Sequence record: PP596835.1
DNA from: Escherichia phage Dru_SM1
DNA: 60,633 nucleotides
Direction: 5' to 3' (one strand)
Under the pieces are notes generated by a model. That model was not told the DNA's origin. It worked only from the letters and a program-made list of their open reading frames with translations, and made no database searches. Position 1 is the first letter of the stretch. Each line of letters starts with the position of its first letter. Position numbers and translations under genes: made by a program. Positions 570 to 60,624 of the stretch are shown piece after piece.

Positions 570-2106
570 TAACATGCCGCGAGTCGTCTGGAAACCACAT
601 CCAGGTTCACAGACACTCGCTCTATCCTGCCCCGCTGATATTATCTTATACCATGGAACTCGCGGTCCTGGAAAAACGGACTGCCAGCTTATGCGTTTCC
701 GTAAGAATGTTGGTGTAGGGTACGGTAAATTTTGGAAGGGTATTATATTCGACCGTGAATATAAAAACCTTGATGACCTTGTAACTAAATCCCAGCGTTG
801 GTTTCCTGAATTTAAAGACGGGGCTAAATTCCTTAGTTCTAAGTCTGATTATAAATGGGTTTGGCCTACTGGTGAAGAGCTACTGTTCCGCGTTGCTTGT
901 AAAGAAAAGGATTACTGGTCTTATCACGGTCACGAATACCCATTTATCGGATGGAACGAATTGACAAAATATCCGGACGGGCGTTTGTTTGAAGCTATGA
1001 TGTCCTGTAACCGTTCATCTTTCCTACCAGAAGATAACCCAATTATCAATCCAGATGGTACGGTTACATATTTACCGGATATCCCTCTTGAAGTGTTTGC
1101 TACCAGTAACCCGTTCGGTGCGGGGCATAACTGGGTTAAGAAACGCTTCATTGACGCTGCACCGATGGGTAAAATACTCAGGAAGACTACGCGAGTGTTT
1201 AACCCGAGGACGCAGAAAGACGAAGATGTGGTTACGACGCAATGCCATATCTTTGGTTCGTACCGTGAAAACAAAAACCTAAGTCCAAAATATATTGCAG
1301 AACTTATGTCTATCACAGACCCGAACAAGCGTGCTGCATGGTTGGGCGGGAGCTGGGATATTACATCCGGTGGTATGTTCGATGATCTGTGGCGTAGCAC
1401 TGTTCACAAAGTACGTCCATTCCCGATTCCATCAAGCTGGAAGATTACACGTTCTTTCGACTGGGGTTCTTCAAAACCATTCTCCGTTGGCTGGTGGGCT
1501 ATTAGTGATGGTTCGGATGTTGTACGTGAAGATGGTACTACATTCTCTACTGTACGCGGTGACTTGTTCCGTATTAACGAGTGGTACGGCACTAACGGTA
1601 AAACAAACGAAGGTCTACATTTGCTGGACTCAGAGATTGCAAGCGGTATACTGGAGCGGGAATTGGCCTGGGGTATACACGACCGTGTAGTTCCTGGACC
1701 TGCGGATAACTCTATTTGGGATCTGGAGAACAATAACTCTACCGCTGCAACAATGGCGAAGAAAATCCGTCTTAACGGCAAGCTGTATAACGGTATCCAT
1801 TGGAAGAGAAGTGATAAATCTGCTGGGTCGCGTAAACGCGGATGGCAGAAAATGCGTGAGTTTCTTAAAGCTGCATTGCGGGAAGATGCAAACGGTAAAC
1901 CTTTGCCCGGTCCGCGCGAGAATCCAGCAATGTACATTTTTGATAACTGCAACTATTTCTTTGAGCTGGTTCCAAGTCTGCCTCGCGATGAAGTGGATCA
2001 GGACGACGTTGATACGGAATGTGAAGACCATATGGGTGATGAAGTTCGTTATATGGTTCTGGATCAAGCTGTTTATACAGGTGTTGGCAAAACTATCGGT
2101 ATTTAA
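547..2106 (+). CDS. terL: terminase large subunit
   Basis: 519-aa ORF; N-terminal P-loop-like ATPase motif (YHGTRGPGKTD); acidic C-terminal region; sits between putative small subunit and portal. Confidence 0.8.
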   Translation: MELNRQPDNMPRVVWKPHPGSQTLALSCPADIILYHGTRGPGKTDCQLMRFRKNVGVGYGKFWKGIIFDREYKNLDDLVTKSQRWFPEFKDGAKFLSSKSDYKWVWPTGEELLFRVACKEKDYWSYHGHEYPFIGWNELTKYPDGRLFEAMMSCNRSSFLPEDNPIINPDGTVTYLPDIPLEVFATSNPFGAGHNWVKKRFIDAAPMGKILRKTTRVFNPRTQKDEDVVTTQCHIFGSYRENKNLSPKYIAELMSITDPNKRAAWLGGSWDITSGGMFDDLWRSTVHKVRPFPIPSSWKITRSFDWGSSKPFSVGWWAISDGSDVVREDGTTFSTVRGDLFRINEWYGTNGKTNEGLHLLDSEIASGILERELAWGIHDRVVPGPADNSIWDLENNNSTAATMAKKIRLNGKLYNGIHWKRSDKSAGSRKRGWQKMREFLKAALREDANGKPLPGPRENPAMYIFDNCNYFFELVPSLPRDEVDQDDVDTECEDHMGDEVRYMVLDQAVYTGVGKTIGI

Positions 2107-2117
2107 CTGGAGGGTAT

Positions 2118-3614
2118 ATGGGTATTGATGCAACTCACCCGCTATATGACAAGTGGAAGGACGCATGGGTTAAGTGCAACGACTGCTATGAGGGTGAAGA
2201 TAAAATTAAGGAAGAAGGTGTTAAATATCTACCACCTTTAGCTTCCATGATTATTGATGGGATGAATAATCCTAATGATTTGGGCTTTCAACGTTGGCTC
2301 GCTTATCGTCTGCGTGCTAACTTCCCTGACGATTATTCAAGTGCGGTTACAAACAATTTAGGTCTGCTACACCAGAAGCCTCCTACAATCCAGCTCCCAC
2401 CTGAAATGGAATACATGCGGGAGCTGTGTACTGCGGACGGTGAAGACATTATTGCTCTGCTACGTCGCATCAATGAAATGCAGTTAAAAAATGGACGTTT
2501 GGGCCTGCTGCTGGACTTGCCGAAAGGTGAGGATGTAAATAACAGACCTTATATTAGCGTTTATGATGCGTTATCCATTATCAACTGGGATGATGGTAAA
2601 GATGAATTGGGCAATATCAACTTGAACATGGTTGTTCTGGATGAAAGCGGTCCTGTACGTGTCAATCAGTTTGACTGGAAAGAAGAGAAGCGTTATCGCG
2701 TTCTACAATTAGGTCCAATGGACACAGATGAAGTAGCAGGTGGAGCAGTCTACTCCCAACATCTGTTTATTAACAATACCAATTATGATGAAGGGCAAAT
2801 GATTGCTCCTTATTATAAAGGTAATACGCTGGATGAAATTCCTTTCCAGTTTGTCAATACAACAGATATTACCCCAGCACCGGAAGCGCCGCCATTGTTG
2901 GGTCTTGCTAACATTTGTCTAAGCATGTACCGAAGTGACGCGGATTACCGCCAATGCTTGCATATGCAGGGTCAGGATACTTTAGTTGTTGTTGGTGGTT
3001 CCATGGAAAATGGAGATAAAGCCCCTCAGCGTATTGGTCCTGGCGCTGTCATTAACGTTGCTATTGGTGGTGACGCTAAATATGTAGGTGTTAGCGGTGA
3101 CGGTTTGTCCGAGCAACGTCTCGCACTGGCAGCGGATAAGCAGGAAGCCCAAATTAAAGCCGGGCAAATGGTAAACAACACCAAGAGCACGCAGGAATCA
3201 GGCGAAGCTATGAAAACGCGTATTGCTGCGCGTACAGCTAGCCTGATTCGAATTGCGTATACTGGTGCGGCAGGTTTGGAAAACTTGCTGAAGGTTTGCG
3301 CTAAATGGATGGGTGCTGATCCAGAGAAAGTTGTGGTTAAGCCTAATCTTGAATTTACCAAGAGCATGTTTAACGGTCAGGACTTTGTTCAAATTATTAC
3401 TGCACGCAACCTTAAGGCTCCACTCAGCTTGCAGTCTATCCATGGCTGGCTTGTTGATCAGGGCTTAACCACACTAAGCTTTGAAGAAGAAATGGCAATT
3501 CTTGAAGAAGAGCTTAAGAAGTGGCCTCTGCCCGATGATGCTAAGGCTGATTTAAACGCAGAGCAGCAAGTAAACAAAGATCCTAAGGAAGACGACGCTT
3601 CCGATAAAGAATAG
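2118..3614 (+). CDS. portal protein
   Basis: 498-aa ORF immediately after terL with GGAGGG RBS; size, acidic C-terminus and position typical of portal proteins. Confidence 0.65.
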   Translation: MGIDATHPLYDKWKDAWVKCNDCYEGEDKIKEEGVKYLPPLASMIIDGMNNPNDLGFQRWLAYRLRANFPDDYSSAVTNNLGLLHQKPPTIQLPPEMEYMRELCTADGEDIIALLRRINEMQLKNGRLGLLLDLPKGEDVNNRPYISVYDALSIINWDDGKDELGNINLNMVVLDESGPVRVNQFDWKEEKRYRVLQLGPMDTDEVAGGAVYSQHLFINNTNYDEGQMIAPYYKGNTLDEIPFQFVNTTDITPAPEAPPLLGLANICLSMYRSDADYRQCLHMQGQDTLVVVGGSMENGDKAPQRIGPGAVINVAIGGDAKYVGVSGDGLSEQRLALAADKQEAQIKAGQMVNNTKSTQESGEAMKTRIAARTASLIRIAYTGAAGLENLLKVCAKWMGADPEKVVVKPNLEFTKSMFNGQDFVQIITARNLKAPLSLQSIHGWLVDQGLTTLSFEEEMAILEEELKKWPLPDDAKADLNAEQQVNKDPKEDDASDKE

Positions 3615-3710
3615 TTGCAACTTCCAAATTGATTGGTTTATATTAACGAACACGGGGCTGGGACGGCTCAGCTCCAAAAAACGTCACACGGGTGACAACG
3701 GAGATAAGAA

Positions 3711-4583
3711 ATGAAAAAGAGTTCTGTAGCTATTAATGTTGGTATGGCTTTGATTAATCCACGCGCTCGCGGTGAAGGTGATGTGGAACTGGAATACGAA
3801 TATGCATCTGCGGAAGAGATCCCGGCAGAGTTTGCTGCTCTTTACGCAGAGCAGGGTGGTAAATACGTTCTTGCAAAAGTTAAAGGTGTAGCCCCTGCTG
3901 ATAGCGTTCGTCGTCTGGAGAGTGCATTAGCAAAAGAACGTAACGATCATCGTCAGGTGAAGCAACAGATTAGCGCACTTGGGCGTCCGGTTGAAGAAGT
4001 CCTTGCGGACCTTGATCGTATCCCTCAACTGGAAGCTGCTGCTAACGGTAAAGGTACTCCGGAAGACATCGAAAAGATGATTAAAGCCCGTCTTGCTCCG
4101 CTCGAGCGTCAATTGCAAACTGTAGCAGCTGAACGCGATTCCGTTAAACAGGAAATTGAAGGCTACCGCACTCGCGAAACTAAAGCGAAGATTAAAGATG
4201 CAGTTATTGCCGCTGCTTCTGGTGCTAAATTGCGTCCATCTGCTATCGAAGACGCTGTAACTTATGCACAGTTGCAGATGACCGTCGACGAGAACGGCAA
4301 TGTGGTTACGAAAGATGGGGCTGGTGTAACTCCATACCTAACTCCGGCGGATTGGCTTAACGAGATCCTCCCGAAACGTCCTCACTGGGTTGAAGGTTCT
4401 GCTGGTGGCGGTGCATCTGGTCCTGGCGCTGGCGGCCATCACGGTGAAGACCCATACAGTCACGACGGTTGGAACATCTCTAAGCAGATGAACCTCTGGA
4501 AAACTAACCAATCTTTAGCTAAACGCTTAGCTGAAAAGAATGGCGTAGATCCGCTGAAGCCTGTACGTCCTGCTAAGAAATAA
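3711..4583 (+). CDS. putative scaffolding protein
   Basis: 290-aa charged Ala/Glu/Lys-rich protein between portal and major capsid genes; Gly-rich C-terminal segment. Confidence 0.45.
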   Translation: MKKSSVAINVGMALINPRARGEGDVELEYEYASAEEIPAEFAALYAEQGGKYVLAKVKGVAPADSVRRLESALAKERNDHRQVKQQISALGRPVEEVLADLDRIPQLEAAANGKGTPEDIEKMIKARLAPLERQLQTVAAERDSVKQEIEGYRTRETKAKIKDAVIAAASGAKLRPSAIEDAVTYAQLQMTVDENGNVVTKDGAGVTPYLTPADWLNEILPKRPHWVEGSAGGGASGPGAGGHHGEDPYSHDGWNISKQMNLWKTNQSLAKRLAEKNGVDPLKPVRPAKK

Positions 4584-14830: not shown

Positions 14831-15239
14831 AATGCCAGGATGGCAGACACGTTTATTAACCACAGTAAAGGAGTTGTCATCGACTCCTTTTTCTTGGGGC
14901 GAAAACGATTGCTGTACGTTTGCCGCTAAATGTGTTGATGCACAATACAACACAAATATTTATAATCAGATAGCAGGTAAATATAGCACAGAGCTTGGAA
15001 GCAAGCGATTTTCAATTGAAAAAGTCGGAACAGCTTATCTTCCAACCTTGCTGGATGCTTACCTGAGTGAGCGTGTTGATAAGAACTTTGCACAAAGAGG
15101 AGATGTGGTTACATTTGAGGGAGCATTGGGCTTAACTGCTGGCATATTATGGACGGGATATGTATGGGCTATGGGTCCGAACGGTGTGGAAACATTCCCG
15201 CTTAATAAGATCAAAATTACGGATATTTGGAGGGTCTAA
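14805..15239 (+). CDS. tail assembly protein with NlpC/P60-like motif (K-like)
   Basis: start moved to ATG 14805 (GGGGAG RBS); contains WGENDCCTFAAKCV, resembling the catalytic Cys region of NlpC/P60 domains in K-type tail proteins. Confidence 0.5.
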   Translation: MRQDSRMSKMPGWQTRLLTTVKELSSTPFSWGENDCCTFAAKCVDAQYNTNIYNQIAGKYSTELGSKRFSIEKVGTAYLPTLLDAYLSERVDKNFAQRGDVVTFEGALGLTAGILWTGYVWAMGPNGVETFPLNKIKITDIWRV

Positions 15240-18190
15240 TGCCACCAGCAATAATTGGAGCAGCAATAGCTTTAGGTGCTTCCGCTGCCGCTGCGGCGGG
15301 GTGGATTGCTACGGGCGTAGCTTTAGCTATTGGTATGGCTGCAACTGCGGCGGGTGCTCTTTTAACTAAGACACCTAATATGAACTTTAATGCTTATAAA
15401 GGTCAACAAGAGCGTAAACAGGTTTTACGAGCAGCCGCAGCGTCTCGAACAGTAGTGTATGGCACAACGGTCGCTTCCGGAGTTATGACGTTTGCCGAGG
15501 AGCAGCCCGGAGATCAGGACAAAGACGAACTCCTGCATATGGCGCTTGTTGTAGCTTCACATCCATTGGAGGGGATTGGTGATATTTGGCTTGGGGATGA
15601 TCTTGTACAGACTTTCGAACAGTATGTTACTTGGGAATTTCATAACGACCGTCAGACTGTAGATCCATTCATGTTAAGCAATTGCCCTTCCTGGAAAGAG
15701 GATATGATTGGGAAAGGGATTGCATGGCTTCGCATTAGCTTTAAATTTAATGCGGAAAAATTCCCGTCTGGCTTGCCAAACATTAAGCTTCTTAAAAGAG
15801 GTCGCCGTGTATATGATCCTCGTTCTGGTTATACCATATTTAGCGATAATGCAGCGTTAGTGATACTTGATTACTTCCGCACGTATTTAAAGCGCAAAGA
15901 TGAAGATATTAACTGGGACCAATTCAAAGAAGCGGCTAACATCTGTGATGAATACGTCAATAACGCCGATGGTTCTACAGAGCGCCGTTATAAAATCAAC
16001 GGTGAATTTGAAGTAGATGAAGCCCCATCCAAAATTCTGGATGCTATGTTGCAAGCTTGTGGCGGCGAGCTAACGTATGTAGCGGGTAAACACGGTCTTC
16101 TGGTTGGCGCATATTACGGTCCAGCAACAATGACGCTGGACGAAAGTTGTATTGCTGGGGATATTAAAATTGTTCCAGAGACTTCTTATAAGGAGCGCAC
16201 CAACACCATCACAGGGACATTTATTGATCCAAAGCAAAACTATGTTGAAGCGGACTTCCCCCCAGTTGTGGTTAAGGAATGGGTGGAAAAAGATGGCGGT
16301 GAAATAACTCAGGACATGGATTTCCGATTTGTAACAAGTGAATATCAAGCCCAACGTTTATCTAATATTATTCTACGTCGTAAACGTGTTGGACGCACAA
16401 TTGAGATTCCTTGTAACATGAAGGGTTATAAATTTCGTCCAGGAATGTATGTAAAAGTTACCATTACGCAGATTGGCATGAAGAATGTTGAAATGCGTGT
16501 TACTAAATGGTCCTTTAACCCTAAAGGTGGTGTTAACCTTACCTTACGTCAAGATTTCCTGGAAATGTGGGACGATGCAATTGGTAAGCCTATGGACAGA
16601 CCAGATCTTGTAGACTTGCCAAGTGGTGGTGTTGCCCAACCTCAAAATCTTCAATACCAGATATTGCAGATTAGTGATGTGGTACAGGGGGTATTATCCT
16701 GGACCAACATGGGGCAAGTTGCATATAACCGCGTAGCTGTGCGACAGGGAGGTGTCACTATTTGGACAGCACAAGTCCCCGGCCAAAGCGTTCGTGTCAC
16801 TGGGTTGCTGCGTGGGTCGTATACTGCGCACGTTCAAGCTGTATCGCACAGTGGCGCAATATCACCGGAAGCTTATCTGGAGTTTAATATTCAAGCCCCA
16901 CCGCCGCCTTCATCTGTCGAAATACAGAACGGTTATTTTTCTTTAACTCTTATACCAAAGATTGCAGAGCTCACTAGTGTTAGCACACAATTTGATTTCT
17001 GGACGTCTGGTGAAACAAAACTGCCGTCTGTTAATACAGATGTTGTTGAGCGCGATGCGACCCGTGAAGGTATGGGAACTATATGGCAGAAAAATAACTT
17101 ACTCAATGACCACACTTATTACTGGTATGTAAGAACTATCAATGCCTTTGGGTCGTCCGCGTTTGTGGAAGTTGAAGCTCGTGTATGGGCAGAAACTGCA
17201 CAGATCATAGAAATTATGGATAAAGAGTTTCAAGAAACTGAAACTTTCAAAAACCTCATGGAGACTGTGCAAAAGGTTGATGACGGTGTAACGGAATTGT
17301 CCAAAGTAGTTGAAGGACAAGCTACAAAAATTGAATCGGTTCAGAGTAGTGTGGGTGATGTTGTTGTTACCGTGCAAGAGCAATCACAAGCACTAGCAGA
17401 TCTTAATGGCAAACTTTCCGCTCAATGGGGCCAAAAGGTTCAAATAGACAATAATGGCAACAAATACGTTGCAGGTATGCAGTTAGGTATTGAAGGTAGC
17501 GGAGGACAATTCCAGTCTTACTTTATGGTGAGCGCTGATAACTTTGCTATTTATAATCCTGTAGCGGGGGCTGCAAGCTTAGCGTTTGTTATTAAGAACG
17601 GTCAAACCTTTATTCGTGAAGGCTTTATTGAAGACGGTTCTATCAATAACGCAAAAATTGGTAATATTATTCAATCCTATAACTGGAACGGTAACGATCA
17701 AGGTTGGGCAATTACTAAAGACGGTTATTTCCACGTTAACAACATAATTGCAAGAGGGACTATTTACGCAACCAACGGTGAGTTTAGAGGGACCGTGTAT
17801 GCAACTAATGGTAAATTCACTGGAACTGTTGAAGCTCAAAGCTTTATTGGCGATATTGCAAACATGCACACTGGAACGAACGTTAGTCGAACGGCCAACG
17901 GTGTACTGGAAAAGGTAATAACATACACAGATTCATCCTCCTCAGGTCATGCAAGACACGTCTGTGTCATAGCAAACGTGAGAGGGAATGGTGCAGGTAC
18001 GATAAACATTAACGGATCCGAGGGTTCTTCCAGCGTACAGGATAGAGAACGACTTATTATGCATTCTGCTGTTGTAACTGGTCCAAACGTTACGGTAAGA
18101 ATTACAGTTTCCGCTCAGAACAATAGAGGGGCGTCTATAGCCTCGCCTACTATTATTGTTTCGCACGGATCCGGTTCATTCACTGGTTAA
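15227..18190 (+). CDS. tail tip / host specificity protein (J-like)
   Basis: 987-aa ORF; hydrophobic Ala-rich N-terminus; largest tail-tip gene in lambda-type position; followed by a terminator. Confidence 0.7.
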   Translation: MEGLMPPAIIGAAIALGASAAAAAGWIATGVALAIGMAATAAGALLTKTPNMNFNAYKGQQERKQVLRAAAASRTVVYGTTVASGVMTFAEEQPGDQDKDELLHMALVVASHPLEGIGDIWLGDDLVQTFEQYVTWEFHNDRQTVDPFMLSNCPSWKEDMIGKGIAWLRISFKFNAEKFPSGLPNIKLLKRGRRVYDPRSGYTIFSDNAALVILDYFRTYLKRKDEDINWDQFKEAANICDEYVNNADGSTERRYKINGEFEVDEAPSKILDAMLQACGGELTYVAGKHGLLVGAYYGPATMTLDESCIAGDIKIVPETSYKERTNTITGTFIDPKQNYVEADFPPVVVKEWVEKDGGEITQDMDFRFVTSEYQAQRLSNIILRRKRVGRTIEIPCNMKGYKFRPGMYVKVTITQIGMKNVEMRVTKWSFNPKGGVNLTLRQDFLEMWDDAIGKPMDRPDLVDLPSGGVAQPQNLQYQILQISDVVQGVLSWTNMGQVAYNRVAVRQGGVTIWTAQVPGQSVRVTGLLRGSYTAHVQAVSHSGAISPEAYLEFNIQAPPPPSSVEIQNGYFSLTLIPKIAELTSVSTQFDFWTSGETKLPSVNTDVVERDATREGMGTIWQKNNLLNDHTYYWYVRTINAFGSSAFVEVEARVWAETAQIIEIMDKEFQETETFKNLMETVQKVDDGVTELSKVVEGQATKIESVQSSVGDVVVTVQEQSQALADLNGKLSAQWGQKVQIDNNGNKYVAGMQLGIEGSGGQFQSYFMVSADNFAIYNPVAGAASLAFVIKNGQTFIREGFIEDGSINNAKIGNIIQSYNWNGNDQGWAITKDGYFHVNNIIARGTIYATNGEFRGTVYATNGKFTGTVEAQSFIGDIANMHTGTNVSRTANGVLEKVITYTDSSSSGHARHVCVIANVRGNGAGTININGSEGSSSVQDRERLIMHSAVVTGPNVTVRITVSAQNNRGASIASPTIIVSHGSGSFTG

Positions 18191-18196
18191 ACAAAA

Positions 18197-18220
18197 CCCC
18201 GCTAATGCGGGGTAATTTTT
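18197..18220. terminator. bidirectional rho-independent terminator
   Basis: hairpin CCCCGC-TAAT-GCGGGG flanked by A-run upstream and TAATTTTT downstream; sits between convergent J-like gene and lipoprotein gene. Confidence 0.6.
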
Positions 18221-18452
18221 AGTAATCTATAACACAGTTGGAAGGACTACCAATTCGTCGGTAGTCGTGATCAATCTCATGACACCATTGCCCAGTCATT
18301 GGAAGTTTTTCGGTATCATAGATTAAAGAACCGTTACCGTCACGGTCTAAAGGTTTTGGAATAACACCGGAATTAGGCTTTCCTGTGTCCAGACCAGTAC
18401 CGCAAGCAGCTAACAGAAATGTTAATGCTAAAATTACAATAGAACTTTTCAT
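18219..18452 (-). CDS. small lipoprotein (candidate receptor-blocking superinfection-exclusion protein)
   Basis: 77 aa from ATG at 18452 with AAAGGAG RBS; signal peptide plus lipobox (LTFLLAAC-G); lone opposite-strand gene between tail fiber genes. Confidence 0.6.
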   Translation of the reverse strand: MKSSIVILALTFLLAACGTGLDTGKPNSGVIPKPLDRDGNGSLIYDTEKLPMTGQWCHEIDHDYRRIGSPSNCVIDY

Positions 18453-18489
18453 CGGGACTCCTTTTAGGTTGTTGTCAAGGTTCAAGTTT

Positions 18490-18517
18490 AATATACTTGT
18501 TAGGTTGAGTAAGTCAA
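18490..18517 (-). promoter_or_regulatory. candidate sigma70-type promoter for the lipoprotein gene (TTGACT-N16-TATATT)
   Basis: -35 TTGACT (rc of 18512-18517) and -10 TATATT (rc of 18490-18495), 16-nt spacer, ~40 nt upstream of the start. Confidence 0.4.
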
Positions 18518-18535
18518 TTAAATGTGGGAGAAATT

Positions 18536-20674
18536 ATGGCTACGCGCTTGCACGGCATCTTGCTGGATGGGTTGAATAATCCAATTATTAACGCTACAGT
18601 TGCTCTTATTGCTAAAGGGAACACAATTACCGTTCTTAATGGTAGTGAGGCTATATTTCGCACTGACGGATCCGGTGCGTATAATGTAACTGTCCAGACT
18701 GGTCATTATAAAGTAATCATCGGACCTCAAGGTATTGAGCCTTATAAAGCTGGGGAGATTGTTATTTATGGTGACAGTCCTGAAGGTTCGCTGAACGGAT
18801 ATTTAATTAACGGGGCTCCAGAAGAATTAACTCCAGATGTTATCAAACAAGTCCAGCAACTTGTGGCTAACTCTGAAGAATATGCTTTGCAAGCTGGGCG
18901 TTCTGCTGCGGCAGCAAACGCAGACGCTACGGACGCACGTAACAGTAAAGCGGCGGCTGCAACCTCAGCAAGTGAAGCATTAACTTACAAGAATGATTCT
19001 AAAACTAACGCGGATGCGGCTAAACAAGCCCAGTCCAGTGCTGCTGGTTCTGCTAACACTGCAACCAAAGCTGTAACCACAATAACAAATCTCAAAAAGG
19101 ATGTTGAAAAGTTAAAGTCGGATACACAGACTATTAAGAATAGTTCAGTAAGCGAGACGCAAGCAATTAAGGACGCCGCTGTGTCCGAAACTACCGCGCT
19201 AAAAGACGCTGCCGCTGCTTCAGCTACGAAAGCAGCTAATAGCGCCACCGAAGCCGGAAAACAAGCAGGTAACGCAGGTACAAGCGCAACAAACGCTAAG
19301 AACGATGCAGACCGCGCAAAGACGGAAGCTGACCGTGCGGAATCTGCTGCCAACAATGCACCAGAAATTCAGCCGTTACCTGATGTGTGGATACCGTTTA
19401 ACGATTCTCTAGATATGATTACGGGCTTTTCGCCTTCATATAAAAAGATTGTTATTGGTGACGATGAAATCACAATGCCTGGCGACAAGATTGTTAAGTT
19501 TAAGCGAGCTTCAACTGCGACATATATTAATAAATCGGGTGAATTTGTCGTTGCGAAAATTGATGAACCACGATTTGAACGTGAGGGCCTACTTATTGAG
19601 GGGCAAAGAACGAACTATATTCTTAACTCGCTTACTGTTTCTAAATGGGGTGCATCTTCGTGGTTGACAATTTCATCAAGCGGAGTTGATAGCTTTGGTT
19701 TTACATATGGTCGATTTGATGTTCAGTCTAGTAATGTTGGAAGCACAACATCCGGTAATATTGCCGTGGCTCCTTCACCAAGAGCATTTGACGTTACTGG
19801 TGGTGAGAAGTATTGCACTATATCTTGCCGATGCAAATGTGAATCAGACATAGATATTCGATGCAGACTCCGATTTGAGAACTACGACGGGACTGCCACA
19901 TCCTTCATTGGCGATGCGTACATGAATATGCAGACTTTAGATATAACAACTACAGGTGGCGCGGCAAATAGAATTACAGCTAAAGCGGTCAAGGATAATG
20001 CTACAGGATGGATATTTTTTGAAGCGACAATAAAAGCACTAGATACCGAAAATATGATTGGTGGCCAAGTTCAGATAGCACCATCTCAAAGAGTTGGTTC
20101 TTTTGCAGATGGTGATCATATTATTGTTGCAACGCCGCAATTCGAAGGTGGGGCGACTGCATCGTCATTCATCATATCTGATACAGTTGCAGCAACACGC
20201 GCAAGCGACACGGTAACTGTTCCTATAAAGAATAATATTTACTCCATTCCTTTCACAATACTGTGTGAAGTACATAAGAACTGGTATAAAACGCCAAATG
20301 CAGCGCCACGTGTTTTTGATACCAGCGGTTATCAAACCGGAGCGGCTATTATTCTTGGCTTCGGTCGTTCAACAGATTACGACGGATTTCCTTATTGCGA
20401 TATTGGAAGAGCTAACATCCGGGTAAACGAAAACGCATCGCTTGAAAAAATGGTTATGGGGATGCGTGTAAAAGCAGATCAATTGACATGTGCAATAAGT
20501 AACGGACGTATATCCAGCGAAACAAAAACAACCTGGACTTATATTCAAAGCTCCGCAACTATTCGTATCGGTGGTCAGACAACGACAGGACAACGTCATT
20601 TATTTGGTCATGTCAGAAATTTTCGAGTATGGCATAAAGCATTGACTGACCGTGAATTGAAGGAGTCTGTATGA
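18536..20674 (+). CDS. tail fiber protein
   Basis: ORF 18524-20674; likely start ATG 18536 (GGGAG RBS); Ala/Ser/Thr-rich repetitive central region (AKQAQSSAAGSANTATKAV...) typical of fibrous proteins. Confidence 0.6.
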   Translation: MATRLHGILLDGLNNPIINATVALIAKGNTITVLNGSEAIFRTDGSGAYNVTVQTGHYKVIIGPQGIEPYKAGEIVIYGDSPEGSLNGYLINGAPEELTPDVIKQVQQLVANSEEYALQAGRSAAAANADATDARNSKAAAATSASEALTYKNDSKTNADAAKQAQSSAAGSANTATKAVTTITNLKKDVEKLKSDTQTIKNSSVSETQAIKDAAVSETTALKDAAAASATKAANSATEAGKQAGNAGTSATNAKNDADRAKTEADRAESAANNAPEIQPLPDVWIPFNDSLDMITGFSPSYKKIVIGDDEITMPGDKIVKFKRASTATYINKSGEFVVAKIDEPRFEREGLLIEGQRTNYILNSLTVSKWGASSWLTISSSGVDSFGFTYGRFDVQSSNVGSTTSGNIAVAPSPRAFDVTGGEKYCTISCRCKCESDIDIRCRLRFENYDGTATSFIGDAYMNMQTLDITTTGGAANRITAKAVKDNATGWIFFEATIKALDTENMIGGQVQIAPSQRVGSFADGDHIIVATPQFEGGATASSFIISDTVAATRASDTVTVPIKNNIYSIPFTILCEVHKNWYKTPNAAPRVFDTSGYQTGAAIILGFGRSTDYDGFPYCDIGRANIRVNENASLEKMVMGMRVKADQLTCAISNGRISSETKTTWTYIQSSATIRIGGQTTTGQRHLFGHVRNFRVWHKALTDRELKESV

Positions 20675-21049: not shown

Positions 21050-22270
21050 GTGCGCCCGCTTGGGTCTACTCCACTTGCTGGAGATCCCGTTGGAGACTAT
21101 GACGCCGCAACTAAGCGTTGGGTGGAGAATAGGATTAATACTGGTACAGTAGGGCCCACAATGAATGGCGTTATGAATTACGGGGTCGGGGATTTTCATC
21201 TTCGAGATAGCCGTGCGTATATTCAACCGTATGAGGTGGTTTCTGACGGACAGCTTCTTAATAGGGCTGACTGGCCTGAATTGTGGGCGTACGCGCAAAT
21301 GGTTGGGGCCATAGATGATTCAGTTTGGTTAGCAGATAAATTTCAGCGTGGCAGATATTCATTGGGGGATGGAACAACAACCTTTCGTGTTCCAGATAGA
21401 AATGGGGTACAGCAAGGGTCAATACGCGCTCTTTATGGCCGTGGAGATGGTGGGAATAGTGGTGCAAATGGGCAACTGTTCGAATCCGCTGCGCCTAATA
21501 TCTATGGGCGTATTGCTAGTTATTCTGGTTCGTCATACGCTCAGGTATTCAGCGATATCAATCAAGGTGCATTTAGAACAAGTAATGATCTATTCCCTGA
21601 TGCCAGAGGTGATGCAATCCCGATAACTGGTGCAATTGCAATATCCGGGCGTTATAATACTCTTGAGATTGATGCGTCACGTTCAAGCCCTATCTACGGT
21701 GCGTCCACTGATGAAATCCTTACGCGCAACTTTGTTGGTGTGTGGGTAATCCGTGCATCTGGCGGGTTTGTTGCTGCAAACACATCCTGGAGCGTTAAGA
21801 ACTCGGATAAGAGCACACTTCCGCAGAATACCTCCGTTCGCGGCGGTGAGGTGGTTTCGGAATATTCCAACCCAGCAGGTAAGCAATTCGCGCGCATGTA
21901 CTCAAACTCTGTATGGGGTTCTGCTAACGCGGCTGTTATTGAGGCAGAAGGTTCTACTAGACACTCCTACAAATTTTACGAGAATGGCACAGTTGACTTC
22001 CGACAGTCGGGTAGGGTTAACACCTTCCATATGAACACACCTATGGGTACATGGAATGATGCTACTGAGGCCCTAATGAACAACCTTACTACTAATGGCA
22101 TGAATAGGGTTGCCATTGCTAGTGGTTCCGACACACTAGTTCGTGGCTATTCTATCGGGGGGTATCGCCCTAATGGCTACCCAACCAAGGTCGGTTACCA
22201 TATGGATCATTGTAAAAAGCATGTTAAGGGGTATGCTTTACTTCGTAACCAGTTGGTTACATCCGCTTAA
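21050..22270 (+). CDS. tail fiber protein with tail-collar-like motif
   Basis: 406-aa ORF; segment GDGTTTFRVPDRNGVQQGSIRALYGRGDGGNSG resembles the phage tail collar domain; start is GTG at 21050 per ORF track (first in-frame ATG is at codon 38), so start uncertain. Confidence 0.55.
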   Translation: MRPLGSTPLAGDPVGDYDAATKRWVENRINTGTVGPTMNGVMNYGVGDFHLRDSRAYIQPYEVVSDGQLLNRADWPELWAYAQMVGAIDDSVWLADKFQRGRYSLGDGTTTFRVPDRNGVQQGSIRALYGRGDGGNSGANGQLFESAAPNIYGRIASYSGSSYAQVFSDINQGAFRTSNDLFPDARGDAIPITGAIAISGRYNTLEIDASRSSPIYGASTDEILTRNFVGVWVIRASGGFVAANTSWSVKNSDKSTLPQNTSVRGGEVVSEYSNPAGKQFARMYSNSVWGSANAAVIEAEGSTRHSYKFYENGTVDFRQSGRVNTFHMNTPMGTWNDATEALMNNLTTNGMNRVAIASGSDTLVRGYSIGGYRPNGYPTKVGYHMDHCKKHVKGYALLRNQLVTSA

Positions 22271-22295: not shown

Positions 22296-23003
22296 ATGTC
22301 TGACATGACTCTTTTACCTACTAATCTCGGTGGCGACGGTTTCGGTGGTGAAGCTGGTGCGGCTGGTATCGGTGGCGCGATCGGTGGTTTGATTGGTTCC
22401 TGGATCGGTAACGGTTGGGGCAGCAATGGTGGTTGGGGTGGTCGCGGTAACTTCGCTGGTCCGGTGGAAGTGCAAGCTTCTGTTGACACCAACGCAATTC
22501 TGCAAGCTATCAACAACGGTACTCTTCAGACCATTCAGGGGCAGAACGGTACTAACCTGACTGTTGAGCGCTCCGCTGCTTCTACCTATAACGGCATAAC
22601 TCAGCAGAACACTCAGAACATGCTGGCTTCCGTTCAGGGTTTTGCTGGTCTGAACACGCAGATCCAGAGCGGCACAAGCCAAGTGCTCGCGGCTCTGTGT
22701 AACAACGAAGCAGCTAATATTACCCGTTCCTTCCAGGCGCAGCTAGAAGCTCAGAAGTGTTGCTGCGAAACCAACCTGAACATCGAGCGTCAAGCAGAAG
22801 CTACTCGTGCGCTCCTGCGCGATCAGCACGCACAAGCGCAAGCTGTTCTGATCTGTGACCTGAAGTCCCAGTTGCAGGAAGCTCGCTTTGCAAACTCTCA
22901 GTTGGCACAAACGGCTGGTCTTACTTGTAAGATCAATCAGGTTGAGCAGTTAGTTAACTTTAAACTGCCAACTCCTCCAACTCCTCCGACTGGCTGCTGC
23001 TAA
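22296..23003 (+). CDS. glycine-rich, Cys-cluster protein of unknown function
   Basis: 235 aa from ATG 22296 (GGAGA RBS); N-terminal Gly/Trp-rich region (GGDGFGGEAGAAGIGGAIGGLIGSWIGNGWGSNGGWGGRGN), internal KCCCE and C-terminal PTPPTPPTGCC. Confidence 0.5.
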   Translation: MSDMTLLPTNLGGDGFGGEAGAAGIGGAIGGLIGSWIGNGWGSNGGWGGRGNFAGPVEVQASVDTNAILQAINNGTLQTIQGQNGTNLTVERSAASTYNGITQQNTQNMLASVQGFAGLNTQIQSGTSQVLAALCNNEAANITRSFQAQLEAQKCCCETNLNIERQAEATRALLRDQHAQAQAVLICDLKSQLQEARFANSQLAQTAGLTCKINQVEQLVNFKLPTPPTPPTGCC

Positions 23004-59662: not shown

Positions 59663-60007
59663 ATGTTCAATTCACCCAACGAACATTGGGCAGTTCTAGC
59701 GGGGTTTGCGTTTATCTCCCTCATTGGGGGAGCTCTCGGTTATGTCATGCGTACAATAGACGCTGGTAAGAAAGTACGGGCAAGTATTGCGTTTCTTGAA
59801 GGCTTATCCGCCGCTTTCTTTGGCGTTATAATGTATGCGATCTACAGGGAGTTTAACATCAGCCTTTGGTTCGCTTTTGGCCTTGCTGGCCTATTTGCTT
59901 GGGCAGGTTCACGTGCTACGCTAAAAGCCCTAACGTCGCTTATAGCTTCACGGACAGGGATCAAACTCGATTCAGGGGACTGCAAACATGAAAACGATTC
60001 TAAATAA
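59663..60007 (+). CDS. putative holin
   Basis: 114-aa ORF with ~3 transmembrane segments and charged C-terminus, between endolysin and spanin genes. Confidence 0.5.
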   Translation: MFNSPNEHWAVLAGFAFISLIGGALGYVMRTIDAGKKVRASIAFLEGLSAAFFGVIMYAIYREFNISLWFAFGLAGLFAWAGSRATLKALTSLIASRTGIKLDSGDCKHENDSK

Positions 60008-60461
60008 CTTCTTCGGTTTTATAAAAACTAAACCGCGTCTGTTTATCGAGTATTTGATGATCGGCGCGGTTGTGTTTTTATGCGGGGTGGCTGCATACTT
60101 GTGGTCACAGAACGAGCTCAGCAAAACTAATTTAAATCATGCTGAGCAAAGACTAACCGTTGTAGAACGGGACAATGCAAAGCTGGGCGAAGCTGTTGTA
60201 TTTCTTGCATCCCAACGGGAGAAGGATACTGAATCCTATCGAAAATTGGCTTCAGCAATTGAAAGTGAGCAACATAACCACAGGTTGCTTCAGGACAAAT
60301 TAAAAGCACTGGAGAAAAGCAATGCCGACGTCAAAGCTTATCTTAATGAGCGTGTTCCTGATGATTTGCGCAGGCTGCTCGACGGAGATACAACCTCCAC
60401 CGCCGCAGATAGTGAAGATAAAACTTCCAGCTCATCTGTTGGTAGAATGTCGGGAAGTTGA
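59988..60461 (+). CDS. Rz: i-spanin (Rz-like)
   Basis: 157-aa ORF; N-terminal transmembrane anchor then charged coiled-coil-like region; Rz1-like gene embedded in +1 frame. Confidence 0.55.
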   Translation: MKTILNNFFGFIKTKPRLFIEYLMIGAVVFLCGVAAYLWSQNELSKTNLNHAEQRLTVVERDNAKLGEAVVFLASQREKDTESYRKLASAIESEQHNHRLLQDKLKALEKSNADVKAYLNERVPDDLRRLLDGDTTSTAADSEDKTSSSSVGRMSGS

Positions 60462-60624
60462 TAAATATCCTTTGGTTTATACGAGGGATATTATCCAACG
60501 TTTGCAGGATACAGAAACAGCTCTGACTGAATGTAAACTGAGGGTTAAGGAAATCATACGCTATGAAGCTGAAAATGTTTCGCTTGATTTTGTAGGATCA
60601 AGCAATTATATTCAGCCTAAATAG
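60322..60624 (+). CDS. Rz1: o-spanin (Rz1-like lipoprotein)
   Basis: 100-aa ORF inside the Rz gene in another frame; signal peptide with lipobox-like LMICAGC and proline run (QPPPPQ). Confidence 0.55.
   Translation: MPTSKLILMSVFLMICAGCSTEIQPPPPQIVKIKLPAHLLVECREVDKYPLVYTRDIIQRLQDTETALTECKLRVKEIIRYEAENVSLDFVGSSNYIQPK

What the first reader, a model, noticed from the sequence alone, without database searches (positions are those of the whole stretch)
18197..18536. Independently transcribed lipoprotein gene on the opposite strand between tail fiber genes
A 77-aa lipoprotein (signal peptide plus LAAC lipobox) is encoded on the minus strand between the J-like gene and the tail fiber gene. It has its own AAAGGAG RBS and a near-consensus promoter (TTGACT-N16-TATATT), and ends at a bidirectional terminator. 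Small lipoproteins at this position in other coliphages (Llp of T5, Cor of phi80/HK022-type phages) block the phage receptor and exclude superinfection.
Basis: partly seen in the sequence, partly recalled or inferred. Interest (0 to 1): 0.55.

Follow-up and report, generated by a model that had tools for sequence, protein, structure and literature searches.

The report
LamB-linked phage exclusion lipoprotein gene
This is a real, strongly conserved small lipoprotein gene next to the receptor-binding end of a virulent coliphage's tail-tip gene; a relative of it has been shown to make E. coli immune to phages that enter through the maltoporin LamB, so the finding is correct but largely anticipated in the literature.

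Summary
A 77-aa ORF lies on the minus strand at 18219-18452, with a canonical lipobox (LAAC, Cys17), an AAAGGAG ribosome-binding site, a 10/12 sigma-70-like promoter (18517-18490) and a bidirectional hairpin terminator (18196-18213). It sits between the J tail-tip gene and the lateral tail fibre gene of a Seuratvirus genome, closest to phage KurtStettler/Bas22.

The protein shares only its signal peptide with T1 Cor and T5 Llp (both phrog_1119). It belongs to a small separate family, phrog_12984. One member, Lpp010 (gp116 of temperate phage mEp010, 55% identical), excludes LamB-dependent phages including lambda when expressed from a plasmid (PMC11893012).

Among the 25 BASEL small siphoviruses, the four that use LamB (Bas21-24) are the only ones with a homolog. 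The gene always lies about 30 nt downstream of J and convergent with it, in at least six phage or prophage lineages. Its mature part is under strong purifying selection (dN/dS 0.02-0.07).

The most likely role is an outer-membrane lipoprotein that makes LamB unusable as a receptor. How it could block a porin that has no plug is unknown, and van den Berg et al. (2022) already raised that question. Verdict: new member of a known kind; low to moderate interest.

The parts
18219..18452 (-). Lipoprotein precursor CDS (77 aa plus TAA stop), member of phrog_12984 and of the 'type-C Lpp' (Lpp010) family
18405..18452 (-). Signal peptide (aa 1-16) ending in the lipobox L-A-A, followed by Cys17 (codon 18404-18402); variable between homologs
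18222..18404 (-). Mature 61-aa lipoprotein. It has the lipidated Cys17, a +2 Gly (outer-membrane sorting) and a conserved Cys57/Cys73 pair (candidate disulfide). Conserved motifs are PNSGVIP, DTEKLPMTGQWC and RRIGSPSNC.
18458..18464 (-). Shine-Dalgarno AAAGGAG, 5 nt upstream of the ATG
   Evidence: conserved as AAAGGAG in Seuratvirus and 9g
18490..18517 (-). Sigma-70-like promoter TTGACT-N16-TATATT. It lies in the 83-nt divergent intergenic region, and its -35 hexamer ends 19 nt from the tail fibre ATG.
18196..18213 (.). Bidirectional intrinsic terminator hairpin shared by the convergent J and lipoprotein genes
   Evidence: equivalent stem-loop or terminator annotated in 9g and mEp010
17741..18190 (+). 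C-terminal about 150 aa of J, the HK97-type putative LamB-binding end. It is 93% identical in amino acids to Bas22, 87% to HK97 and 69% to mEp010. The lipoprotein gene is always linked to this end of J.
15227..18190 (+). J-like tail tip protein gene (987 aa)
18536..20674 (+). Lateral tail fibre gene, divergent from the lipoprotein gene (context only; this neighbour is not conserved in other lineages)

Best explanation
The gene encodes a small outer-membrane lipoprotein that makes the phage's own terminal receptor, the maltoporin LamB, unusable.

Proposed sequence of events:
1. Host RNA polymerase transcribes the gene from its own sigma-70-type promoter, on the strand opposite the late tail operon. 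Transcription stops at the hairpin shared with J (inferred).
2. The precursor is exported, lipidated at Cys17 and cleaved by signal peptidase II. Because residue +2 is Gly, Lol sends it to the outer membrane (inferred from sequence rules).
3. The 61-residue mature peptide, probably clamped by a Cys57-Cys73 disulfide, acts on LamB so that J-type tail tips can no longer use it (inferred from the homolog Lpp010 and from gene-receptor association).

In a virulent phage the likely benefit is twofold: exclusion of competing LamB phages during infection, and protection of progeny from being wasted on LamB in cell debris. This matches the role proposed for T5 Llp and T1 Cor. It is a functional analogue of Cor/Llp, not a homolog.
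For: Homology to a tested protein:
- It is 55% identical (E = 4e-22) to mEp010_116 = gp116 = Lpp010, and both fall in phrog_12984.
- Lpp010 expressed from a plasmid excludes the LamB-dependent phages mEp010, mEp044, mEp554 and lambda (PMC11893012 sections 3.6, 3.7).

Association with the receptor:
- In BASEL Bas01-25, the four LamB users (Bas21-24) all have a homolog at 84-94% identity.
- None of the 21 phages using FhuA, BtuB, LptD, YncD or TolC appears among the 43 hit records. Fisher p is about 8e-5, but the phages are not phylogenetically independent.
- The four LamB-dependent mEp phages have a homolog; the two OmpA-dependent ones are not among the hits (PMC11893012).

Linkage to J:
- The gene is always convergent with J and about 30 nt after its stop. 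This holds in Seuratvirus, Nonagvirus, Dhillonvirus, Drexlerviridae, mEpimmI phages, Salmonella and E. coli prophages and a metagenomic contig, while the gene on the other side varies.

Sequence features:
- The lipobox rule is met in 30 of 32 members and +2 is never Asp.
- Cys57 and Cys73 are invariant in the 24-sequence alignment A2.
- dN/dS of the mature part is 0.02-0.07.
- Mature-peptide identity does not track divergence of the J C-terminus (Spearman rho 0.003). That fits a constraint imposed by a common host target.

Published context:
- Promoter, RBS and terminator are confirmed.
- The literature had already predicted exclusion lipoproteins downstream of gpJ in LamB phages such as Bas23 (PMC9586334; PMC8594841).
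Against: - There is no experiment on this protein or on any Queuovirinae homolog.
- The Lpp010 data are spot and plating assays, so a block of adsorption to LamB has not been separated from a later block.
- Lpp010 fails to exclude mEp013, which also needs LamB (PMC11893012).
- LamB has no plug and no known allostery, so the Llp mechanism cannot simply be transferred (PMC9586334).
- HK97 and lambda use LamB without having this gene, so it is not obligatory.
- The structure prediction was poor (pLDDT 61-63) and gives no mechanistic support.
- Promoter activity and timing of expression are inferred.
Confidence: 0.8

Rival explanations
1. The lipoprotein excludes phages after adsorption. It would block tail-tip penetration or DNA passage through the periplasm or inner membrane, rather than masking LamB.
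For: - Lpp010 was tested only by plating (PMC11893012).
- mEp013 needs LamB yet escapes Lpp010, so LamB is not simply removed.
- LamB lacks the plug and allostery that Llp exploits (PMC9586334).
- A periplasm-facing outer-membrane lipoprotein is well placed to meet an incoming tail tip.
Against: - The gene is present only in phages that use LamB, across J C-termini that are just 30-38% identical to each other.
- Lpp010 also excludes lambda, whose J C-terminus is unrelated (17-24% identity). From general knowledge, lambda's inner-membrane requirement (ManYZ) also differs from HK97's (PtsG). LamB is the component these excluded phages are known to share.
Confidence: 0.12
2. It is a 'moron' whose main function is unrelated to phage entry, for example changing host envelope properties as lambda Bor does, or modulating maltodextrin uptake. 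Exclusion would be a side effect.
For: - It is a small independently transcribed gene on the reverse strand within a late operon, the classic moron layout.
- It is also found in prophages of E. coli and Salmonella.
Against: - It is kept under strong purifying selection in strictly virulent Seuratvirus, Nonagvirus, Dhillonvirus and Drexlerviridae phages.
- It is always tied to the receptor-binding end of J.
- Its presence follows receptor usage.
Confidence: 0.05
3. It is a lysis protein (o-spanin, Rz1-like), or it is a spurious ORF.
For: Rz1-type o-spanins are also small outer-membrane lipoproteins.
Against: - The window has its own lysis cassette at about 59.2-60.6 kb. It holds a holin, an i-spanin (59988-60461) and an overlapping Pro-rich lipoprotein ORF (60322-60624). 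The same cassette is annotated in Bas22.
- No i-spanin partner lies next to 18219-18452.
- The ORF is clearly coding.
Confidence: 0.02

Closest known systems
Lpp010 (gp116, 'type-C lipoprotein') of temperate coliphage mEp010 and its mEp013/044/554 variants (Negrete-Mendez et al. 2025, PMC11893012)
   Same: True homolog: 55% identity over 73 aa (E = 4e-22), the same PHROG (12984), and the same conserved Cys pair and motifs. The position is the same, convergent with J, and a terminator is annotated between the two genes in mEp010. The phages are LamB-dependent, and the mEp010 J C-terminus is 69% identical to the one here.
   Different: The host phage is temperate and unrelated in the rest of its genome. 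The mature N-terminal segment differs and is 3 residues longer. No close sigma-70 match lies directly upstream, and a small ORF (gp117) precedes it. Exclusion has been shown for Lpp010, not for this protein.
Unnamed 'lipoprotein'/'hypothetical protein' genes downstream of gpJ in the LamB-targeting Queuovirinae Bas21-24, CAjan, Seurat and 9g. These were noted as bona fide RBP/exclusion loci by Maffei et al. 2021 (PMC8594841) and as likely SE lipoproteins by van den Berg et al. 2022 (PMC9586334).
   Same: Orthologs at 79-94% identity, with the same locus, promoter hexamers, RBS and terminator.
   Different: Most of these phages carry a different J C-terminal class (CAjan-type, about 31-34% identical to the HK97-type here), while the lipoprotein stays at least 92% identical in its mature part.
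T5 Llp and T1/phi80/N15 Cor (phrog_1119, 'Cor superinfection exclusion protein')
   Same: Size is similar (75-77 aa precursor; T5 Llp mature peptide 62 aa as annotated, versus 61 aa here). All are lipobox lipoproteins with a Cys pair, encoded next to the receptor-binding gene(s). The T1 and T5 genes have their own promoters or terminators annotated nearby. The role is receptor inactivation and exclusion (PMC9586334).
   Different: There is no sequence relationship beyond the signal peptide (hhalign aligns 20-21 columns only), and the PHROG differs. Their target is the plugged TonB-dependent transporter FhuA, where Llp acts through the plug by reverse allostery. LamB has no plug.
Lambda Bor / HK97 'reverse moron' genes
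   Same: Small genes with their own transcription signals, inserted in reverse orientation in late operons.
   Different: No homology. Bor is not linked to receptor specificity.

Membership tests
phrog_12984 / type-C Lpp (Lpp010-like) lipoproteins linked to LamB phages | Sequence homology to Lpp010 and to the family profile | tested here: met
   The window protein hits phrog_12984 at E = 1.4e-48 over 77/77 positions, and Lpp010 hits the same PHROG at E = 1e-26. tblastn gives 55% identity at E = 4e-22.
phrog_12984 / type-C Lpp (Lpp010-like) lipoproteins linked to LamB phages | Lipoprotein signal peptide with lipobox Cys and a non-Asp +2 residue | tested here: met
   LAAC with Cys17 and +2 Gly. 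The rule is met in 30 of 32 family members.
phrog_12984 / type-C Lpp (Lpp010-like) lipoproteins linked to LamB phages | Conserved mature core: PNSGV, DTEKLP.TGQWC, RRIGSPSNC, and two further Cys | tested here: met
   Alignments A1 and A2.
phrog_12984 / type-C Lpp (Lpp010-like) lipoproteins linked to LamB phages | Gene convergent with J and immediately downstream of it, separated by a hairpin | tested here: met
   The gap is 28 nt and contains hairpin 18196-18213. The same layout is seen in 10 other loci.
phrog_12984 / type-C Lpp (Lpp010-like) lipoproteins linked to LamB phages | The phage uses LamB as terminal receptor | not testable with these tools
   Proxy evidence only. Bas22 has a J C-terminus 93% identical and is LamB-dependent with complementation (PMC8594841 S5 Table and the S8/S10 figure legends).
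phrog_12984 / type-C Lpp (Lpp010-like) lipoproteins linked to LamB phages | Expression excludes LamB-dependent phages | not testable with these tools
   Shown only for Lpp010 (PMC11893012 section 3.7).
Cor/Llp superinfection exclusion lipoproteins (phrog_1119) | Sequence homology of the mature protein to Cor or Llp | tested here: not met
   hhalign of family alignment A2 against T1 Cor and T5 Llp aligns only the signal peptide, 21 and 20 columns. The window protein does not hit phrog_1119 even at E <= 1, while Cor and Llp do. There is no PDB sequence hit to Llp.
Cor/Llp superinfection exclusion lipoproteins (phrog_1119) | Llp-like fold | tested here: inconclusive
   The AF2 models are poor (pLDDT 61 and 63). 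The Foldseek PDB search returned nothing with E <= 0.001.
Cor/Llp superinfection exclusion lipoproteins (phrog_1119) | Acts on FhuA | not testable with these tools
   The association data point to LamB instead.
Cor/Llp superinfection exclusion lipoproteins (phrog_1119) | Small lipoprotein gene beside the receptor-binding gene(s), with its own transcription signals | tested here: met
o-spanin (Rz1-like) | Embedded in or adjacent to an i-spanin gene in a lysis cassette | tested here: not met
   The lysis cassette with i-spanin and o-spanin candidates lies at about 59.2-60.6 kb. It is annotated in Bas22.

The most novel reading that the evidence does not exclude
This family may disable a plug-less, non-allosteric trimeric porin (LamB) by a mechanism unlike Llp's reverse allostery on FhuA. 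Two possibilities are threading a disulfide-clamped, largely extended 61-residue peptide into the channel from the periplasm, and being displayed on the cell surface over the J-binding loops. Either way it would probably also shut down maltodextrin uptake. The mature peptide stays at least 92% identical across phages whose J C-termini are only about 30% identical. Lpp010 also blocks lambda, whose J C-terminus is unrelated. Together these suggest a generic, receptor-side block that could serve as a portable LamB switch.
Probability: 0.45. Interest if true: 0.55.

Novelty: new member of a known kind. Interest (0 to 1): 0.25.

Why it matters
It adds one more well-defined member to the only family so far tied by experiment to exclusion of LamB-dependent phages. 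The comparative data tighten three points: strict linkage to the 3' end of J in unrelated phage lineages, presence only in LamB users, and very strong conservation that is independent of the J variant.

In practice the gene is a usable in-silico marker for LamB tropism in small siphoviruses. It is also relevant to phage-cocktail design, because a cell infected or lysogenised by a carrier should resist other LamB phages.

The open question is mechanistic: how a 61-residue lipoprotein inactivates a porin without a plug. The gene's existence and its probable role are not new.

Tried and rejected
- Pfam, NCBIfam and PADLOC scans gave no family beyond weak signal-peptide matches to LptM.
- A PDB sequence search gave only a spurious hit to a designed repeat protein.
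- Two AlphaFold2 runs, on the full-length and mature-only alignments, gave pLDDT 61 and 63 with almost no regular secondary structure. The Foldseek search against the PDB returned nothing significant. Fold-level comparison with Llp therefore remains open.
- A profile search of 1.84 billion representative proteins found only three family clusters plus one weak repeat match in a giant adhesin. No bridge to a larger family was found.
- I tested whether lipoprotein divergence tracks divergence of the J C-terminus, as a sign of co-evolution with the phage receptor-binding domain. There was no correlation (rho = 0.003).
- The o-spanin reading was rejected because a separate lysis cassette exists.
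- The TTG start at 18485 (88 aa) was rejected. The ATG at 18452 has the Shine-Dalgarno sequence, matches all homologs, and leaves a standard n-region.
- Promoter conservation outside the Queuovirinae: each lineage examined except mEp010 has some sigma-70-like match upstream, read by eye and not scored. The sequences are not homologous, and mEp010 has only weak matches.
Full report
**1. What is there**

The window is essentially a complete Seuratvirus (Queuovirinae) genome. The region around the finding is 92% identical in nucleotides to Escherichia phage KurtStettler (Bas22). In Bas22 every gene from the terminase through the gene four positions past the lateral tail fibre module is on the + strand, except one small gene.

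That gene corresponds to the ORF on the minus strand at 18219-18452. It starts at ATG 18452 and stops at TAA 18221-18219, giving 77 aa. AAAGGAG lies at 18464-18458, 5 nt upstream of the ATG.

The J stop (18190) and the lipoprotein stop (18219) are 28 nt apart. That gap is filled by a 7-bp hairpin with 6 G-C pairs (18196-18213), flanked by T-runs on both strands. Its free energy is -14.9 and -15.1 kcal/mol, with z = -4.2 and -4.5 against shuffles.

Upstream, an 83-nt divergent intergenic region holds TTGACT-N16-TATATT at 18517-18490. A 10/12 match is expected only about 0.025 times in a given 100 nt on one strand. Both hexamers are unchanged in KurtStettler, SHIN8 and CAjan. In 9g the -10 is unchanged and the -35 is TTAGCT.

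Transcription itself remains an inference.

**2. It is a real lipoprotein gene**

- The N-terminus MKSSIVILALTFLLAAC meets the PROSITE-type lipoprotein rule, with Cys17 as the lipidation site.
- Residue +2 is Gly. By the established Lol sorting rule this predicts outer-membrane localisation.
- The same holds for 30 of 32 relatives, and +2 is never Asp.
- The mature 61-residue part contains two further Cys (57 and 73). They are invariant in the 24-sequence alignment A2, along with the motifs PNSGV, DTEKLP.TGQWC and RRIGSPSNC.
- Against Seuratvirus and Nonagvirus orthologs, the synonymous distance of the mature part is about 0.9-1.5 while dN/dS is 0.02-0.05. It is 0.07 against KurtStettler, where dS is only 0.1. 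The signal peptide varies freely.
- The protein hits PHROG 12984 ('lipoprotein', no function assigned) at E = 1.4e-48.
- It hits no curated Pfam, NCBIfam or PADLOC family.
- The family is small. There are 28 clusters at 90% identity, and only three clusters among 1.84 billion representatives at 50% identity.

**3. What it is related to**

tblastn finds homologs in 43 phage records. These cover:
- Seuratvirus: KurtStettler 93.5%; CAjan, Seurat, slur01 and others 82-86%.
- Nonagvirus 9g: 79%.
- Dhillonvirus: Maverick, EP23, HH3, PNS1 at 66-72%.
- A Drexlerviridae phage of Enterobacter (AS5): 59%.
- The temperate phages mEp010, mEp013, mEp044 and mEp554, and MagusPhagus: 52-55%.

The mEp010 homolog is mEp010_116. 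This is gp116 = Lpp010, the 'type-C lipoprotein' of Negrete-Mendez et al. 2025. When expressed from plasmid pLpp010, it excluded mEp010, mEp044, mEp554 and lambda. In the same paper the lamB knockout abolished infection by exactly mEp010, mEp013, mEp044 and mEp554 (PMC11893012 sections 3.6, 3.7). Lpp010 falls in the same PHROG as the window protein.

**4. Association with LamB**

The BASEL S5 table lists terminal receptors for 25 small siphoviruses. Bas21-24 use LamB. All four appear among the 43 records with a homolog. None of the 21 phages that use FhuA, BtuB, LptD, YncD or TolC does. That group includes the Seuratvirus VogelGryff/Bas25, which uses LptD and matches the window only from the tail fibre gene onward.

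LamB dependence of Bas22 was confirmed by complementation (PMC8594841, S8/S10 figure legends). A simple Fisher test gives about 8e-5, although the carriers are related to one another.

The gene is not universal among LamB phages. Lambda and HK97 lack it.

**5. Linkage to J**

The gene is convergent with J and about 30 nt beyond its stop in every locus examined. These are Seuratvirus, Nonagvirus, Dhillonvirus, Drexlerviridae, mEpimmI phages, a Salmonella prophage, an E. coli prophage and a 44-kb metagenomic contig.

The gene on the other side differs between lineages. It can be a tail fibre, a small hypothetical gene or an IS-disrupted region. The unit that moves is therefore the 3' end of J plus the lipoprotein gene.

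The last 150 residues of J fall into at least four classes that are only 30-38% identical to each other:
- HK97-type: this window, Bas22, 9g, mEp010 and an E. coli prophage.
- CAjan-type: CAjan and Maverick, with SHIN8 as a duplicated variant. Bas21, Bas23 and Bas24 match the window's J C-terminus at the same about 34% as CAjan.
- AS5-type.
- A Salmonella type.

Lipoprotein identity does not follow J identity (Spearman rho 0.003). The mature peptide is 92-98% identical among the four Queuovirinae compared (KurtStettler, SHIN8, CAjan, 9g), whichever J class they carry. Both the HK97-type (Bas22) and CAjan-type (Bas21, 23, 24) phages use LamB. The simplest reading is that a shared host target constrains the peptide, not the phage's own receptor-binding domain. 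This is an inference.

**6. Relation to Cor and Llp**

T1 cor (L005:29623-29850, minus strand) is a reverse-oriented 75-aa lipoprotein gene that overlaps an annotated terminator just past the two genes that follow J. T5 llp (L006:35430-35663) is a 77-aa lipoprotein gene divergent from the receptor-binding gene oad, with promoters annotated in the gap between them.

Both fall in phrog_1119, 'Cor superinfection exclusion protein'. The window protein does not. Profile comparison aligns only the signal peptides.

A fold comparison could not be made. Two AlphaFold2 runs gave pLDDT 61 and 63, and Foldseek found nothing significant in the PDB.

The protein therefore works like Cor/Llp, on the evidence above, but it is not a member of that family.

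**7. Mechanism and its limits**

The steps below separate what the sequence shows from what is inferred.
- Shown by sequence: a gene with its own RBS, a promoter-like site and a terminator, encoding a lipobox precursor with an outer-membrane sorting residue.
- Inferred from the homolog and the association data: the mature lipoprotein renders LamB unusable by J-type tail tips.
- Unknown: how it does so.

[quoted passage not shown] The same paper notes that LamB-targeting phages such as Bas23 'likely do have SE lipoproteins'. It also notes that LamB has no known allostery, and suggests surface exposure as one possibility.

Lpp010's failure to exclude LamB-dependent mEp013 (PMC11893012) shows that the block is not simple removal of LamB. 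Because only plating was measured, a post-adsorption block stays a live rival, at about 0.12.

The spanin reading is excluded, because the window has its own lysis cassette (holin 59663-60007, i-spanin 59988-60461, overlapping Pro-rich lipoprotein ORF 60322-60624).

**8. Novelty and verdict**

The locus type was described by Maffei et al. 2021. The presence of a likely exclusion lipoprotein in LamB-targeting Bas23 was pointed out by van den Berg et al. 2022. A 55%-identical homolog was tested in 2025.

This window adds a new member, 93.5% identical to an existing GenBank entry. The analysis adds comparative support: strict J linkage, LamB-only distribution, strong purifying selection and independence from the J class.

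It is a correct and well-observed finding of an ordinary, largely anticipated element. Interest is 0.25. The remaining interest lies in how a plug-less porin is blocked.

Noticed in passing
window 17801-18202: The 3' end of J, up to the first half of the terminator hairpin, is 89.6% identical in nucleotides to the 3' end of J in the temperate lambdoid phage HK97 (87% in amino acids over the last 149 residues). HK97 has no lipoprotein homolog, only a 207-nt gap before stf. This points to a recent mosaic exchange between a virulent Seuratvirus and a temperate phage, with the joint at the terminator.
   Followed up: partly
L002 (phage SHIN8), J gene 747-3980, C-terminal part: SHIN8 J carries a tandem duplication of about 37 aa (RIIVTANIGETSITRRIERAANGPAMDVTIPLAVKG, twice) in the receptor-binding end. 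This makes it 1077 aa long.
   Followed up: no
window 21050-22270 and 22296-23003: The lateral tail fibre module differs from KurtStettler. Where Bas22 has a 510-aa 'lateral tail fiber chaperone', this window has two ORFs. One is a 406-aa tail-fibre-like ORF (phrog_6921, matching only profile positions 190-566, GTG start). The other is a 235-aa protein of unknown function with a Gly-rich N-terminus and a Cys-rich C-terminus ending PTGCC (phrog_9288).
   Followed up: partly
window 18264-18353 (lipoprotein residues 34-63): The core D-R-D-G-N-G-S-L-I-Y-D-T-E resembles an EF-hand or SdrD-B-type calcium-binding loop. The family profile weakly matches nine repeats of a 4467-aa adhesin with SdrD_B and CshA repeats (P0030, E = 4.6e-6). 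The first Asp positions are not conserved in the family, so the meaning is unclear.
   Followed up: partly
window 59988-60624: Lysis cassette end: an i-spanin candidate (59988-60461) overlaps an out-of-frame 100-aa lipoprotein ORF (60322-60624, MPTSKLILMSVFLMICAGC..., Pro-rich). The latter is an o-spanin candidate, longer than the 61-aa o-spanin annotated in KurtStettler.
   Followed up: no
window, whole: Sigma-70-like sites with at least 10/12 matches number 30 on both strands, against 17.9 +/- 3.8 in first-order Markov simulations. Many minus-strand sites lie in the early/replication region between 25 and 58 kb. This fits host-polymerase-driven early transcription.
   Followed up: no
L014 (E. 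coli GCA_032852905.1 contig) 2663-3891 and P0025: In one E. coli prophage the region upstream of the lipoprotein gene is interrupted by an IS (transposase with rve domain). In another widespread E. coli cluster (P0025, 29 contigs) the lipoprotein is frameshifted after residue 54 and loses both conserved Cys, so it is probably a pseudogene.
   Followed up: no
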